Source: the human T2T-CHM13v2.0 reference genome, Homo sapiens. Taken from it: 64,000 nt of DNA. The notes below the pieces were generated by a model. The model saw only the letters and a list, made by a program, of their open reading frames with translations. It had not been told where the DNA came from and searched no databases. Made by a program: the position numbers and the translations under genes. The stretch is from the NCBI RefSeq assembly GCF_009914755.1, contig NC_060925.1; one strand, given 5' to 3'. Below, in pieces: positions 6,456-51,566 of this stretch; position 1 is the stretch's first letter, and each line of letters begins with the position of its first letter.

Positions 6456-6824
6456 CAATATGGTCTGGCTGTGTCCCCACCCAAATCTCATATTGAATTA
6501 TAGTTCCCATAATCCCCACATGTCATGGGAGGGACCCAGTGGGAGGTAATTTAATCATGGGGGTGGTTACTTTCATGCTGTTCTCATGATAGTGAGTTAT
6601 CACAGGATCTGATGGTTTTATGAGGGGCTTTTTCCCCTTTAGCTCAGCACTTCTCCTTACTGCCACATGTAAAGAAGGACGTGTTTGCTTCCCTTTCCAT
6701 CATGATTGTAAGTTTCCTGAGGCTTCCCCAGCCATGCTGAACTGTGAGTCAATTAAACCTCTTTCCTTTATAAATTACCCAGTCGGGTATGTCTTTATTA
6801 GCAGCATGAAAATGGACTAATACA
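6456..6824 (+). mobile_element. THE1 (THE1C/D-like) MaLR solo LTR within an older MLT1-like LTR
   Basis: atatggtctggctgtgtccccacccaaatctcat ... aattaaacctctttcc ... ggactaataca. Confidence 0.92.
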
Positions 6825-7121
6825 ATGTGGGAGGGATGGAGTGGGTGGAGGGCAGGGGATGTTATATATCACTTCCGCCACGTGTCATTATTCAAAACAT
6901 CTATGTGCAAATAGAGAAACATGGCCCTGCTGTTGACTTAGAAGAAAAGGATCATCTGCAGTAAAAAGCTAGCTGCTATCTACCAGCGTATAAAGAGCCT
7001 ATTCTGTACCTTGCCAAAACAGAATTCAATCACGCCTTATAACCTTTGCCAATCTGAGAGGGTAAAAGATTACCTGTCTTACTTCAATTTACAGTTTTAA
7101 AAATCTCTAGTAAGATTAAAC

Positions 7122-8120: not shown

Positions 8121-8492
8121 TATATCTCTGCCCGTTTTCACACAACTATAAAGAAATACCTGAGACTAGGGAATTTATAAAGGATAGAGGTTTAATTGAC
8201 TCACAGTTCCACATAGCTCAGGGAGGCCTCAGGAAACTTACAATCATGACAGAAGGTGAAGGGGGAGCAAGGACCTTCTCACAGGAGAGAGAAGAGTGAG
8301 AGCGAAGGGAAGAGCCCCTTATAAAACCATCAGATCTTCTGGGAACTCACTCACCAACATAAGAACAGCATGGGCGGAACCGCCCCCATGATCCAGTCAC
8401 CTTCCACCAGGTCTCTCCCTAGACACATGAGGGTTATGGGGATTACAATTCAAGTTGAGATTTGGGTGAGGATACAAAGCCTAACCATATCA
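8121..8492 (-). mobile_element. THE1D/MSTA-like MaLR solo LTR
   Basis: gaggtttaattgactcacagttccaca, ggaaacttacaatcatg, ends in ctaaccatatca. Confidence 0.9.
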
Positions 8493-45765: not shown

Positions 45766-47342
45766 CTAAATTAAAATTGAAGCTCAATAATTCTTACATT
45801 TAAAAAAAGGCCTTGGGTACATTTCTTAATTAACCCCACCTCTGTTTCTAAAGGAAAGAAAGCTGTAAACCAGGAGTAAATTATATTGCCTTGCAAACTG
45901 TGAACTGTAAACCTGTAAACTGATGGTAAATGAATTGTGACCAGAACACAACCACACCCCAGCCATGAATGGATGTCACAACAACTCAAAGAAAATGGAG
46001 GAAGAAAAATGTGTCCATACCATGCCCAATCTTTCAACACTTCATTTCTGAAGGACTGACAGCAAAACTGCCTTTCTCATGCAGCTGGTTGGGCTGGGAT
46101 CTTGTCCAAATGCATGAAGGTGACTTTGATTCTGTGTTGTTCAGCTTCTACAGAGGGAGAGAAGGATACAGGCAAGAGCATGCTCCTTTGACATCTCACA
46201 ACGGCACATGGCCCAGCTCTGTCTGACTTTGGCACTTTGTCCAAGAAACTTTTCCTTTCCAAACAGCACATCCTTCTTCTGACCTCACATCTAGAATCAG
46301 TTTTGTTCCAGAGCATAACAAGGTTCTCGATGCTCCCATGGCTGCCAACTTTGTAACTAAAGACAAATGGGAAAAGCAAATGGATCCTGGGCAACATGTG
46401 CCATTACTTTCCTGGCTGTAGACAGTGATGATGTAAGGTTTTATGTGGTCTCCTTGCCAGCTTCTGAGCCTGATCACAGTGATGAAACTAGCAAAGGAGT
46501 AATTATGAACATTCACATAACAGTGCAGAGAGAGCAGAGCTCTTAAAGCAACAGAAGGAGCCCCAGCTTTATCCAATTTTGGTTATTACATACATTTTCT
46601 GATTCTAATGCATTTCATATATTCATTTATTATGCTCCTACTATAGTGTATGCATATACATACAGGGAAGTATATATAGTCTCTGAGGACATGATGTTTT
46701 ACAGAAACCTTAATGGAGCCATTGTGAAAATTTAGGGACTGGTTATGAGACAGGGGCAAGGATAAAGGCTCTGAGATGAGAGCACTTTAGTGTTTTCTGA
46801 GAATAGCGTGGAGTTCAATGTGGCAAGAGCAGAAGGGACAAAGGAGACAGTGGTAGGAGGTGAGGTTCAACAGGAAGCCAGAGGTTAGTTAGAGAATTAC
46901 TATACCTACTTCTTAGAGGAAAAGCCATAGGAATATTCTGAGCAGCGGAGGGGCATGGTTTGACTTTTGTGCTAAAAGGGGCACTCTAGTGGGGAGTGGA
47001 GAATAAACCTTGGGAAGGTGACAGAAGATGCAGGCAGGCAAGTAAGCACACCTCATAACATCACATTGCACCCCCTAAATGGATGTAATTATCATTTGCC
47101 AATTAAAAATAAAACTTATAACAATTAAAATTCTTTTTTAAAAGAGCTAACTGCTGCCATCCAGAAGAAAGAGGGAGAGAGACTGGCTTATACCAAAAGG
47201 TGGAAGTAGGGGTTAATGGTGAGAAGAGTTAGCATTCAAGATAAATTTTGAGTGGGGAGCCTGAAGGATTTGCTAATACACAGGGTATAAAGTGTGAAAG
47301 AAAAAGAGAAGTTGATGATGACAAGGTTTTGGCTTGAACAGC

Positions 47343-47582
47343 TGTATTAGTTCGTTTTCCTGCTGCTGATAAAGACATACTAGAGACTGGGAAGAAAAAG
47401 AGGTTTAATTGGACTTATAGTTCCACATGGCTGGGAAGGCTCCAGAATCATGGCGGGAGGTGAAAGGCACTTCTTACATAGTGGCGGCAAGAGAAAACGA
47501 GAGAGGTGCAAAAGTGGAAAGCCCTGATAAAATCATCAGATTTCATGAGACTTATTCACTACCAGAAGAACAGTATGGGGGA
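47343..47582 (-). mobile_element. Partial THE1C-like MaLR LTR (3'/U5 side only)
   Basis: tgtattagttcgttttcctgctgctgataaagacatac...gagacttattcactacc...cagtatggggga, then abrupt end. Confidence 0.92.
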
Positions 47583-49914
47583 CAGCTTTCGGCCTGTTGC
47601 TGGGCTTTGGTGGAAACTAAACATTTGACTGGGTCATCAAGTCACCTGTGACCTGAACTGCCTATAATGAACTGGGTGCTTTCTGACCCATCTAGCCATA
47701 AAGTGGGTCATGCACAGCAGCATTCCTTCATCAAATGGAAGTGGTATATACATTATCAGGCTCAAGCAGGTCCTGAAGGCACAAGTAATTTACACGAGGA
47801 AGTGGCTCAAATGCCCACGGTCTCCACTTCTGCCACCTTGCCTTCTCTTCCCGAGCCCACACAGATGGCCTCATGGGGAGTTCCCTATTATCAGTTGACA
47901 GAGGAAGAGAAGACTAGGGCCTGGTTCACAGGTGGTTCTGCACAATATGCAGGCACCACCCGAAAGTGGACAGCTGTAGCACTACAGCCTCTTTCTAGGA
48001 CATCCCTGAAAGACAACAGTGAGGGGAAATCTTCCCAGTGGGTAGAACTTAGAGCAGTGCACCTGATTGTACGCTTTGCATGGAAGGAGAAATGACCAGA
48101 TGTGCAATTATATACTGATTCGTGGGCTGTAGCCAATGGTGAGGCTGGATGGTCAGGGTCTTGGAAGAAGCATGATTGGAAAATTGGTGACAAAGAAATT
48201 TGGGGAAGAGGTATGTGGATGAACCTCTCTGAGTGGCCAAAAACTGTGAAGATATTTGTACCCCATGTGAGTGCTCACCAATGGGTGACCCAGCAGAGGA
48301 GGATTTTAATAATCAAGTGGATAGCATGACCCATTCTGTGGACACACCTCAGCCTCTTTCCCCAGCCACTCCTGTCATCACCCAATGGGCCCATGAACAA
48401 AGTGACCATGCTAGCAGGAATGGAGGTTATGCATGGGCTCAGCAACATGGACTTCCACTCACCAAGGTTGGCCTGGCTATGGCCACTGCTGAGTGCCCAA
48501 TTTGCCAGCAGCAGGGATCAATACTGAGCCCTTGATATGGCACCATTCCTCGGGGTGATCAGCCAGCTACCTGGTGGCAGGTTGATTATATTGGACCTCT
48601 TCCATCATGGAAAGGGAAGAGGTTTGTCCTCACAGGAATAGACACTTACTCAGGATATGGGTTTGCCTAACCTGCACTCAATGCTTCTGCCAAGACTACC
48701 ATCCATGGACTCATGGAATGCCTATTCACTGTCATGGTATTCCACACAGCATTGCCTCTGACCAAGGCACTCACTTTACAGCTAAAGAAGTGTGGCAGTG
48801 GGCTCATGCTCATGGAGTTTACTGATCTTACCATGTTCTCCATCATCCTGAAGCAGCTGGATTAATAGAACGGCGGAATGGCCTTTTGAAGTCACAATTA
48901 AAATGCCAACTAGGTGACAATACTTTGCAGGGCTGGGGCAAAGTTCTCCAGAAGGCCATGTATGCTCTGAATCAGTGTCCAATATATGGCACTGTTTCTC
49001 CCGTAGCTAGGATTCACAGGTCCATGAATCAAGGGATGGAAGTGGAAGTGGGTTACCCCCAGTGATCCACTAGCAAAATGTTTGCTTTCTGTTCCTGGGA
49101 CATTACATTCTGCTGGCCTAGAGGTCTTAGTTTCAGAGGGAGGAACACTGCCGCCAGGAGGCACAAAAACAATTCCATTAACCTGGAAGTTAAGATTGCC
49201 ACCTGGACAATTTGGGCTCTTCCTGTCTTTAAGTCAACAGGCTAAGAAGGGAGTTACACTGTTGGCTGGGGTGATTGACCCAAACTATCAAGATGAAGTC
49301 AGTCTACTACTACATAACAGAGGTAAGGAAGAGTATGCATGGAATACAGGAGACCCATTATGGTGTCTCTTAGTATTACCATGCCCTGTGATTAAGGTCA
49401 ATGGGAAACTACAACAGTCCAATCCAGGAAAGACTACAAATGACCCAGACCTTTCAGGAATGAAGGTTTGGGTCTCTCCACCAGGAAAAAACCCATGACC
49501 TGCTGAGGTGTTTGCTGAAGGCAAAGGGAATACAGAATGGGTAATAGAAGAAGGTCATCAATACCAGCTATGGCCACGTAACCAGCTGCAGAAACAAGGA
49601 CTGTAGTTGTTATGAGTATTTCCTCCTTTTGTTAAAAACATGTTTGTGCATGCGTACACTTATATTAAGAAAATATCTTCATTTTATTTCCTTTTCCTTT
49701 ATCATGTGACATAAGATTTATTGACTTCACATCAGCATTTAAGTATTGTTAACTTTATGTAATAGCGTTTGGGTTGGGGATTGGTGCGCTTCTGGTTGTA
49801 CGAAGGAGAGTTGTGTTATGTTAGGCATAATTATGACCTGATTATTGTCTTTACTTGAAGATTATGTAAGATCTGAGGAGATGTGTATGAGTTCAAGTTG
49901 ACAAGGGGTGGACT
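47581..49914 (+). mobile_element. HERV-L internal region: pol connection/RNase H, integrase, dUTPase (disrupted) and polypurine tract
   Basis: ORFs give RAWFTGGSA, SSQWVELRAV, LYTDSWAVANG, HVSAHQ, WAHEQSDH...ECPICQQ, IASDQGTHF, LRLPPGQFG...AGVIDPNYQ; PPT acaaggggtggact. Confidence 0.95.
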
Positions 49915-50452
49915 TGTGATGATTAATACTGGGTGTCAAGTTGATTGGATTGAAGGATACAAAGTATTGATCCTGGGTATTTCTGTGAGGGTGTTGCCAA
50001 AGGAGATTAACGTTTGAGTCAGTGGACTGGGAAGGTCAGACCCACCCTCACTCTGGGTGGGCACAATCTAATCAGCTGCCAGCACGGCTAGAATATTAGC
50101 AGGCAAAAAAATGTAAAAAGAGAAACTGGCCTGACTTCCCAGCCTACATCTTTCTCCTGTGCTGGATGCTTCCTGCCCTCAAACATCGGACTCTAAGTTC
50201 TCCAGTTTTGGAATGTAGACTGGCTCTCCTTGCTCCTCATCCTGCAGATGGCCTATTATGGAACCTTGTGATCATGTGAGACAATACTTAATAAACTCCC
50301 ATATATATATATGTACATATATATAGTTATATATATACATATATAGTTAGTTATATATATATAGTTATATAGTTATATATATAGTTATATATACATATAG
50401 TTTTTTTATATATATATATATTTCTGTCCCTCTAGAGAACCTGACTAATACA
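49915..50452 (+). mobile_element. MLT2A (HERV-L) 3' LTR with internal (TA)n-rich tract at ~50301-50421
   Basis: tgtgatgattaatactgggtgtcaagttgattggattgaagg ... ttaataaactccc ... gagaacctgactaataca. Confidence 0.93.
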
Positions 50453-51566
50453 ACAACTGAGTATATTAAGGTGGGGAACAGGGTGGGAAGGGGGTAATTC
50501 TGGCTTGAAGTGGGAAATCAAGAACTCTCTTTCAACATGTTAGGTTGGAGATGTCTATTAACCATCCCAGGGAGGCTTCAACTAGGAAGTTAGGTATATA
50601 AGTCCAGAATTCAGTTATGACTAGAGTCAAAAATTCAATAGGTATCATGTGTTTAAAGTGATGAAACCTAGAAAGTTAATGCAGGTAGAGAATAGAAATC
50701 TTGGAAAGATGGACTAATCCCTAGGAAATTTTAATAATTTATTAGTGAAGATGTTATTCAACCCCAAATAATTAAACCTATCTTTTAGTGGGTCATTTTT
50801 TATGGCATAATAGAAATTTCAAAAGGTGTAAGACAAAGGCCTTGCCTTCAAAGAAGAGAGATTGGTGTATTTTTAAGAACACTGCCAATGAACACTAGAC
50901 CTAGCCTACCTCCTACTAGATGTGTGATCTTTAACAAATTACCCAATGGTTTTGGTTTCAACATTTTTATTGTATAAGTGACATACTAAGTACCTATATC
51001 ATAGCAATTTTAAGAGAAAATTAAATTAGATACCAAGTATATGATATTGTAGACATTCCAGCTTCTTTCTCTTCAAAGAATGTTTATTTGGGGGAACTGT
51101 TCCCCCACACATCTTCCATCTAGTCTAGATTGTAAGCTGCATGAGGGCAGAAAACACTTTTATCTTATATCTGTTATATAGAAAATAATGCCTAGCATTG
51201 TAGGTTCTCAACAATTATCTGTAGAATAAATCAAGTGGGAAACCAGTAGGTATATTTGGGTAGGATTTAGGTGCCTGGATACTTAGATGATTCAAAGTAA
51301 ATGCTGTCCCTTTACCTCACAGAGTTTACACACAACCCAGGCGTTTCAATACAATGATAGAAAGAAAAGACAACCATGATGGAAGACTTAATCCCCAATT
51401 AAAAACACAGAACTTATTTTCCATCATTATATTTGTGTATAATTTAAATATGCTGGGTTGCCTTTAGTTCATTTAAAGCAAAGCAATGCATCTAAATGAA
51501 ACAAATATCTTATTCAAGAAGTATTGTAGAAATTTATTGAAGTTTTCTTTAAAATTCAGTAGTTAT

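What the first reader, a model, noticed from the sequence alone, without database searches (positions are those of the whole stretch)
47338..50457. THE1(MaLR)/HERV-L chimera apparently integrated as one unit using two U5 ends
Seen: the insert is an antisense 3' part of a THE1 LTR (47343-47582) fused at a 2-nt GA overlap to sense HERV-L pol/dUTPase and a full MLT2A 3' LTR (to 50452). Both ends are the LTR 3' terminus (TGTATTAGT...ACTAATACA, a 9-bp inverted repeat). It is flanked by ACAGC (47338-47342) and ACAAC (50453-50457), a 4/5 match of the 5-bp TSD size typical of ERVL/MaLR, and removing it restores a continuous L2 (ggttttggcttga-acaac-tgagt). Known: MaLRs lack pol and are thought to borrow ERVL enzymes. 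Inference: THE1 and HERV-L cDNAs were joined in one particle or pre-integration complex and integrated as a U5-U5 substrate, a possible fossil record of MaLR/ERVL co-packaging.
Basis: partly seen in the sequence, partly recalled or inferred. Interest (0 to 1): 0.8.

Follow-up and report, generated by a model that had tools for sequence, protein, structure and literature searches.

The report
Inverted MaLR/HERV-L insert with two U5 ends
A 3.1-kb insert in an old L2 repeat joins, tail to tail, a piece of a THE1-type LTR and the rear half of a HERV-L provirus, so that both outer ends are the same kind of viral end; it looks like one aberrant integration and may be a physical trace of the two elements sharing one replication machinery.

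Summary
An antisense THE1-type MaLR LTR piece (47343-47582, about positions 114-354 of a 354-bp LTR) is fused through a 2-nt GA overlap to HERV-L pol (RNase H, integrase, dUTPase) and a complete 3' LTR (49915-50452). Both outer ends are exact LTR 3' (U5) termini, flanked by ACAGC and ACAAC. The junction is unique among the scored genome matches. The flanks are one collinear L2 copy.

One caveat weakens the duplication argument. L2 has a near-repeat (CAACTG...CAACTGAG, about 25 nt apart), so the exact register cannot be fixed. The duplication therefore rests on the 4/5 pentamer match. For comparison, 12 of 14 solo relatives show 5/5 or 4/5.

Best reading (about 0.55): integrase inserted one chimeric DNA carrying two U5 ends. 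That DNA formed before integration, either when two nascent minus-strand cDNAs primed each other or by end-joining.

Main rival (about 0.25): two independent insertions about 20-25 nt apart, then one deletion.

Orthologous loci could not be examined. This is a single case and a new variant of known aberrant retroelement integration. Interest is moderate to high.

The parts
47151..47337 (.). left flank, old L2-type repeat
   Evidence: L2 profile positions 114-289, part of the 73.7-bit hit. Relatives L012 and L013 are 71-73% identical.
47338..47342 (.). left pentamer ACAGC (putative target-site duplication copy)
   Evidence: Read. It aligns to L2 profile 290-294, gcaac.
47343..47582 (-). 3' 240 nt (about positions 114-354 of 354) of a THE1-type MaLR LTR; its U5 terminus is at 47343
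   Evidence: The 39 relatives are 88-90% identical, and the LTR end ...GACTAATACA is shared by 18 of 29 relatives.
47581..47582 (.). GA overlap shared by both parents at the internal junction
   Evidence: MaLR copies read ...GGGGGA|AAC and HERV-L copies read ...GAGA|GACAGC.
47583..49914 (+). HERV-L internal region from mid-pol to the polypurine tract, degraded by stops and frameshifts
   Evidence: RNase_H 48096-48329 (E 1e-5), rve 48536-48825 (E 2.6e-3 and 1.6e-4, below the cut-off), dUTPase 49028-49498 (E 3.2e-10).
49915..50452 (+). complete HERV-L 3' LTR (MLT2A-type) with a TA-rich microsatellite at about 50295-50425; its U5 terminus is at 50452
   Evidence: The 39 relatives are 88-90% identical over 49915-50300, and start and end motifs match the relatives.
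50453..50457 (.). right pentamer ACAAC
   Evidence: Read. It aligns to L2 profile 290-294 in the joined alignment. An alternative placement at the L2 near-repeat about 25 nt downstream is not excluded.
50458..50646 (.). right flank, the same L2 copy
   Evidence: L2 profile 317-511, 31.5 bits on its own. It is collinear with the left flank in a single 115.1-bit hit.

Best explanation
A single integrase-catalysed insertion of one chimeric double-stranded DNA whose two termini were both U5 ends. One end came from a THE1-type MaLR cDNA (the last 240 bp of its LTR). The other came from a HERV-L cDNA (the last 2.87 kb: mid-pol, dUTPase, 3' LTR). The two were joined tail to tail at a 2-nt GA overlap before integration.

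The two LTR families share the terminal sequence (G)ACTAATACA. One ERV-L-type integrase could therefore bind both ends, trim them and insert them with its usual 5-bp stagger.

The way of joining that I favour is inferred, not shown. Two nascent minus-strand DNAs were being copied in the same reverse-transcription complex. Each stalled: THE1 after 240 nt, just past a G5 run, and HERV-L after 2.87 kb. Their 3' ends paired through GA:TC, and each was extended on the other up to that strand's 5' end, which is the U5 terminus. This directly yields a blunt duplex with two authentic U5 ends. End-joining of two broken cDNAs inside one pre-integration complex would give the same product.

Shown: the anatomy, the junction, the termini and the flanks. 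Inferred: a single event, how the pieces were joined, and a shared particle.
For: - Both outer ends stop at exactly the base where integrated relatives stop. On the MaLR side 18 of 29 relatives end GACTAATACA. On the MLT2A side all 4 visible ends match.
- The flanking pentamers match 4/5. By my own arithmetic the chance of at least 4/5 in random sequence is 1.6%. Among 14 solo relatives of the MaLR part, 7 have 5/5, 5 have 4/5 and 2 have 3/5. MuERV-L makes 5-bp duplications (PMC4516963, passages).
- The differing base is a transition, and the right copy matches L2 relatives.
- The flanks form one collinear L2 hit of 115.1 bits, against 73.7 and 31.5 bits separately.
- The internal junction is clean, with a 2-nt overlap and no filler.
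- The junction is unique among 40 scored matches of 2496 candidates.
- The missing HERV-L 5' part and MaLR LTR 1-113 are not elsewhere in the window.
- Both parts show the same identity band to their relatives, 88-90%.
- Retroviral RTs can clamp and extend strands paired by only 2 nt containing a G or C (PMC3035444, abstract).
- Purified integrases insert two U5-only donors concertedly with a regular 5-bp duplication (PMC3790719, passages).
- One-duplication complex insertions attributed to aberrant template switching are known in plants (PMC1950507, text part 1).
- DUX4 activates both THE1 and MLT2A1/2, so co-expression is plausible (PMC3836709, passages).
Against: - This is a single locus, and no orthologous empty or filled site was examined.
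- The duplication is imperfect (4/5).
- The L2 test cannot fix the register. An offset scan gave 106.9-113.4 bits for all offsets from -8 to +15: 113.3 at the duplication register and 111.3 with both pentamers kept.
- In pairwise tests the duplication reading scored better in 10, equal in 2 and worse in 7 of 19 L2 relatives.
- L2 relatives carry CAACTG at the site (5 of 19) and CAACTGA about 25 nt downstream (3 of 19). The right flank could therefore begin at the second copy, with no true duplication.
- A 15-nt L2 gap lies 4 nt from the site. However, 3 of 19 relatives have gaps of 15-23 nt in the same stretch.
- No natural two-U5 provirus was found in the papers searched, so its prior frequency is unknown.
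- The sequence cannot distinguish RT-mediated joining from end-joining.
Confidence: 0.55

Rival explanations
1. Two ordinary, independent insertions followed by one deletion. An antisense THE1 and a sense HERV-L integrated about 20-25 nt apart in the same L2 copy (or at the very same pentamer). A single deletion of about 3.6 kb with 2-nt microhomology then removed THE1 LTR 1-113, the short L2 spacer and the HERV-L 5' half. The outer ends are exact termini automatically. The pentamers look alike because L2 repeats CAAC(T)G here.
For: - L2 has a near-repeat: CAACTG at the site in 5 of 19 relatives and CAACTGA about 25 nt downstream in 3 of 19.
- Profile and pairwise scores barely distinguish the registers.
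- A 2-nt microhomology is typical of genomic deletions.
- MaLR fragments, often antisense, are frequent beside or inside HERV chains and are usually read as secondary integrations (PMC4724089, passages).
Against: - It needs a HERV-L insertion within about 25 nt of one particular end of a THE1, in the right orientation, then a deletion with both breakpoints inside the elements, and a 4/5 pentamer match. My rough estimate, from copy numbers in PMC3836709 and assumed deletion rates, is on the order of 1e-3 such loci genome-wide. That is an estimate, not a computation.
- When the right flank is aligned alone, the profile places TATATTAAGGTGGGG on L2 positions 314-328 rather than treating it as an insertion. 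That leaves ACAACTGAG best placed at 290-298.
- The duplication register scores 2-4 bits higher.
Confidence: 0.25
2. Integrase-independent repair of a chromosome break by capture of two cDNA fragments (RT-product-mediated break repair). MaLR and ERV-L cDNAs, abundant in cleavage-stage embryos, were stitched together and into a break by microhomology.
For: In mouse zygotes, breaks capture MuERV-L and MaLR fragments, sometimes several at one break, joined by 1-5 bp microhomologies (PMC4516963, abstract and passages). The internal GA junction here looks the same.
Against: - Captured fragments in that study are truncated at both ends, lack LTR termini and as a rule lack duplications (PMC4516963).
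- Here both outer ends are exact, integrase-type LTR termini with no extra or missing bases, and they are flanked by pentamers of the family-typical length.
Confidence: 0.08
3. One integration of a two-U5 chimera, but without co-packaging. Two separately made cDNAs, from different particles, met in the cytoplasm or nucleus. They were ligated by host end-joining, or each gave one end to one intasome, and were then integrated.
For: The same structural evidence as the best explanation. Integrases accept two separate U5 donor molecules in vitro (PMC3790719, passages).
Against: Nothing in the sequence argues against it. It differs from the best reading only in where the two cDNAs met. It would still require an integrase that accepts both termini.
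Confidence: 0.2

Closest known systems
Canonical ERV-L / MaLR integration (class III ERV, 5-bp duplication)
   Same: Exact LTR termini ending in CA at both host junctions. Flanking 5-bp repeat, as in 12 of 14 solo relatives and as stated for MuERV-L (PMC4516963).
   Different: A normal insert has one U3 end and one U5 end of one element. This one has two U5 ends from two different elements in inverted orientation, and no 5' LTR.
Template-switch 'complex' LTR-retrotransposon insertions (Sabot and Schulman 2007, PMC1950507)
   Same: A composite of two parent sequences bounded by one 5-bp duplication, explained by aberrant strand transfer between co-packaged RNAs before a single integration.
   Different: Those are same-family, same-orientation, three-LTR structures in grasses with normal U3/U5 ends. 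This one is heterologous (non-autonomous plus autonomous), inverted, and U5/U5.
RT-product-mediated break repair capturing MuERV-L and MaLR cDNA (Ono et al. 2015, PMC4516963)
   Same: ERV-L and MaLR cDNA fragments joined to each other by 1-5 bp microhomology. The same pair of element families is involved.
   Different: Captured fragments lack LTR termini and regular duplications. Here both outer ends are processed LTR termini with a pentamer repeat.
In vitro concerted integration of two U5 donor ends (e.g. PMC3790719)
   Same: Two U5 ends in one intasome give a regular duplication.
   Different: That is a test-tube reaction with oligonucleotides. This would be a natural germline instance, with ends from two different elements.
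Recombinant ERV families such as HARLEQUIN (PMC5753468, passage) and mosaic HERVs (PMC4724089)
   Same: Sequence contributions from more than one ERV family in one insert.
   Different: Those are collinear recombinants with normal LTRs that later multiplied, or nested secondary insertions. This junction is unique in the genome and the insert is a dead end.

Membership tests
ERV-L (HERV-L) provirus fragment | pol with RNase H and integrase, followed by a dUTPase domain downstream of integrase | tested here: met
   Pfam: RNase_H 26.2 bits (cut-off 25.8); dUTPase 40.3 bits (cut-off 22); rve 18.4 and 22.4 bits, below the cut-off of 32.6. The order is RNase H, then integrase, then dUTPase. PMC5753468 states that the ERVL lineage encodes dUTPase.
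ERV-L (HERV-L) provirus fragment | LTR of the MLT2A type with TG...CA termini | tested here: inconclusive
   It is homologous at 88-90% to 39 genomic copies with the same start and end. The label MLT2A is recalled; no repeat library was available to name it.
MaLR, THE1-type LTR | LTR of about 350 bp reading TGATATGG...GACTAATACA, abundant, solo copies with a 5-bp duplication | tested here: met
   Relatives are 354 bp. There were 5070 candidates. Of 14 solo copies, 12 have at least a 4/5 pentamer match. The subfamily (THE1A-D or MSTA) was not determined, and the name is recalled.
L2 LINE (flanks) | old dispersed repeat, collinear on both sides of the insert | tested here: inconclusive
   27 genomic relatives at about 70-75% identity, and a single collinear profile hit. 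The exact register is ambiguous. The name L2 was not checked against a library.
Canonical concerted retroviral integration | both host junctions at processed LTR termini | tested here: met
Canonical concerted retroviral integration | target-site duplication of the family's length | tested here: inconclusive
   ACAGC and ACAAC match 4/5. The L2 near-repeat offers a chance explanation.
Canonical concerted retroviral integration | one U3 end and one U5 end of a single cDNA | tested here: not met
   There are two U5 ends, from two element families.
RT-product-mediated break repair (RMDR) | inserted fragments truncated at both ends, without LTR termini or regular duplication, with microhomology at the host junctions | tested here: not met
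   The outer ends are complete LTR termini. Only the internal junction shows microhomology.

The most novel reading that the evidence does not exclude
This is a germline fossil of a heterologous reverse-transcription accident. A THE1 RNA and a HERV-L RNA were copied in the same particle. Their stalled minus-strand DNAs primed each other through a 2-nt clamp, and the resulting two-U5 duplex was inserted by the HERV-L integrase. If so, it is direct physical evidence that MaLRs rode in ERV-L particles and used ERV-L reverse transcriptase and integrase. It would also show that a natural intasome can work with two U5 ends.
Probability: 0.3. Interest if true: 0.75.

Novelty: new variant of a known kind. 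Interest (0 to 1): 0.55.

Why it matters
MaLRs make up about 4% of the human genome (PMC4724089) yet encode no polymerase or integrase. That they borrow ERV-L enzymes is a long-standing assumption, based on gag homology and co-expression (PMC3836709, PMC4516963). An insert in which a MaLR U5 end and an ERV-L U5 end were handled by one integration reaction would tie the two cDNAs to the same complex.

It also defines a searchable signature: outward-facing U5/U5 or U3/U3 pairs sharing one duplication. That signature would turn the helper question into a genome-wide statistical test, especially in mouse, where MERVL and MT/ORR1 are young.

Tried and rejected
- **L2 relatives inside the window.** Searches by blastn and nhmmer found none.
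- **Right flank against the genome.** A genome search with the right flank alone found only itself. L2 relatives had to be reached through L012 as a bridge.
- **Fixing the duplication register.** An offset scan and a pairwise test were meant to settle it but did not discriminate.
- **The 15-nt L2 gap as an insertion scar.** Rejected as evidence either way. Deletions of at least 10 nt occur 23 times, and of at least 15 nt 7 times, in 9979 aligned columns. In addition, 3 of 19 relatives have gaps in the same stretch.
- **Two other MaLR LTRs in the window (about 6456-6825 and 8148-8492) as possible missing pieces.** Rejected. They are only 67-69% identical over the 3' part, and the first has its own 4/5 pentamer flanks.
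- **A propagating recombinant family.** Rejected, because the junction is unique.
- **Papers.** Searches for aberrant or inverted proviruses, minus-strand self-priming, tail-to-tail LTR elements, 'U5-U5', and HERV-L/MaLR chimeras found no description of a natural two-U5 heterologous insert. The one 'U5-U5' hit concerns RNA contacts. The library lacks most older subscription virology, so this is not proof of absence.
- **Vargiu et al., chain rvnr 5922.** This MaLR chain has a MuERVL-like Pol. It clusters with HERVL32/HERVS and no coordinates were seen. Their Table S1 was not read.
Full report
**What is there.**

Reading the window confirms the stated coordinates:
- the pentamer ACAGC at 47338-47342;
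- TGTATTAGT starting at 47343;
- ACTAATACA ending at 50452;
- the pentamer ACAAC at 50453-50457.

The two 9-mers are exact reverse complements of each other.

**Left part (47343-47582).** This is an antisense MaLR LTR piece. A search of the window's own genome scored 40 of 5070 candidates, and the 39 non-self matches are 88-90% identical, nearly all over the full 240 nt. Comparing 29 of these loci shows a 354-bp LTR that starts TGATATGG and ends GACTAATACA. The window retains about positions 114-354. The name THE1 is recalled, and the subfamily was not determined.

**Internal part.** It is degraded by stops and frameshifts but still gives three Pfam hits in the ERV-L order:
- RNase_H at 48096-48329;
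- integrase core at 48536-48825, below the curated cut-off;
- dUTPase at 49028-49498.

**Right LTR (49915-50452).** It starts like 10 of 10 relatives and ends like the 4 whose ends lay inside the fetched stretch. Its extra length is a TA-rich microsatellite.

**The internal junction.** All 9 HERV-L copies examined begin to match the window at 47581. Of 12 MaLR copies, 8 match up to 47582 and the others stop 1-9 nt earlier. HERV-L copies read ...GAGA|GACAGC and MaLR copies read ...GGGGGA|AAC. The parents therefore overlap by the two bases GA, with no filler. In a search with 47480-47700, only the window itself spans the junction. The other 39 scored matches (of 2496 candidates) start at query positions 98-112, most of them at 102. 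The chimera is therefore not a multiplied family. The missing HERV-L 5' half and MaLR LTR 1-113 are not elsewhere in the 64 kb.

**The flanks.**

No L2 relative lies elsewhere in the window. Through a bridging relative I built a profile from 29 hits in 27 loci. The left flank matches profile positions 114-296 at 73.7 bits, and the right flank matches 317-511 at 31.5 bits. With the insert and one pentamer left out, there is one hit covering 114-511 at 115.1 bits. It runs through ...ggcctgaGCAACtg.... So the two flanks belong to one collinear L2 copy.

Two caveats follow.
- **A gap near the site.** A 15-nt gap lies 4 nt to the right of the pentamer. This stretch is deletion-prone: 3 of 19 spanning relatives have gaps of 15-23 nt there. 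Overall there are 7 deletions of at least 15 nt in 9979 aligned columns. The gap is therefore not a sign of the insertion.
- **A near-repeat in L2.** L2 relatives carry CAACTG at the site (5 of 19) and CAACTGA about 25 nt downstream (3 of 19). The right flank's first bases, ACAACTGAG, can be placed at either copy.

The register tests did not resolve the second caveat. An offset scan gives 106.9-113.4 bits for every offset from -8 to +15. The duplication register scores 113.3, or 115.1 when the right pentamer is the one kept, against 111.3 with both pentamers kept. A pairwise test favours the duplication reading in 10, ties in 2 and disfavours it in 7 of 19 relatives.

L2 continuity is thus shown only to within about 25 nt. 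The duplication rests on the 4/5 pentamer identity. By my own arithmetic the chance of at least 4/5 in random sequence is 1.6%, and somewhat more here because of the near-repeat. For comparison, the 14 solo relatives of the MaLR part have 5/5 in 7, 4/5 in 5 and 3/5 in 2.

**How it most likely arose.**

Both outer ends are exact, processed LTR 3' termini. The two LTR families share the terminal (G)ACTAATACA. One integrase could therefore have handled both ends.

I read the insert as one integration of a duplex with two U5 ends (confidence 0.55). My preferred route for making that duplex is inferred. The top strand from 47343 to 47582 has the polarity of THE1 minus-strand DNA starting at its primer. 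The bottom strand from 50452 to 47581 has the polarity of HERV-L minus-strand DNA. Their 3' ends are complementary over GA:TC. If the two nascent strands paired and each was extended on the other, the product is a blunt duplex ending in two U5 termini.

Published work makes the individual steps plausible:
- Retroviral reverse transcriptases can clamp and extend 2-nt duplexes that contain a G or C (PMC3035444, abstract).
- Purified integrases insert two U5-only donors concertedly with a regular duplication (PMC3790719, passages).
- Composites bounded by one duplication and attributed to aberrant strand transfer are described in grasses (PMC1950507, text part 1).

End-joining of two broken cDNAs in one complex would give the same fossil, and the sequence cannot tell the two routes apart.

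Co-expression of the two elements is plausible. DUX4 binds and activates both THE1 and MLT2A1/2 (PMC3836709, passages). In addition, the THE1 and MSTA/B families are simian-specific (PMC10735291, passages).

**Rivals.**
1. **Two independent insertions plus one deletion (0.25).** The insertions would lie about 20-25 nt apart, or at the same pentamer. The near-repeat keeps this rival open. It needs a rare coincidence of position, orientation, deletion breakpoints and pentamer likeness. My rough estimate is on the order of 1e-3 such loci genome-wide, from copy numbers in PMC3836709 and assumed rates. That is an estimate, not a computation.
2. **Integrase-independent capture of two cDNA fragments at a break (0.08).** This was seen for MuERV-L and MaLR in mouse zygotes (PMC4516963). 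It explains the internal junction but not the two exact LTR termini or the pentamers.
3. **One integration, but of cDNAs from different particles.** This variant cannot be separated from co-packaging with this fossil.

**What could not be done.** No primate orthologs and no repeat library were available. Older subscription-journal virology is largely outside the library. The supplementary table of PMC4724089 that lists mosaic chains was not read.

**Verdict.** This is a new variant of known aberrant retroelement integration, known from one locus, with interest 0.55.

Noticed in passing
window 50295-50425; loci L073-L082: The TA-rich microsatellite sits right after ...AATAAACTCCC in the right LTR. 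In 7 of 10 related LTR copies a simple repeat (TA, TG, TCTA or TGTCTA types) has expanded at the same LTR position. This LTR family seems to carry a recurrent microsatellite seed.
   Followed up: partly
L2 profile positions about 290-330; window 47330-47342 and 50453-50480: This L2 stretch has a near-repeat (CAACTGG... and ...CAACTGAG, also GGATGGAG and GAGATGGGG) and is deletion-prone: 3 of 19 relatives have gaps of 15-23 nt. Such internal repeats can mimic target-site duplications when inserts in L2 are judged by eye.
   Followed up: yes
window 6456-6825 and 8148-8492: There are two other MaLR LTRs in opposite orientations, about 1.3 kb apart. They are 75-86% identical to the 5' 113 nt of THE1-type LTRs but only 67-69% identical over the 3' part. 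The first has its own 4/5 pentamer flanks, ACGTG and ATGTG. The second has a degraded U5 end. They look like ordinary independent solo LTRs.
   Followed up: partly
loci L044-L072 and L073-L082: THE1-type and MLT2A-type LTRs share both termini closely: TGATATGGTT against TGTGATGGTT at the 5' end, and (G)ACTAATACA at the 3' end. This fits use of one integrase type by both families.
   Followed up: partly
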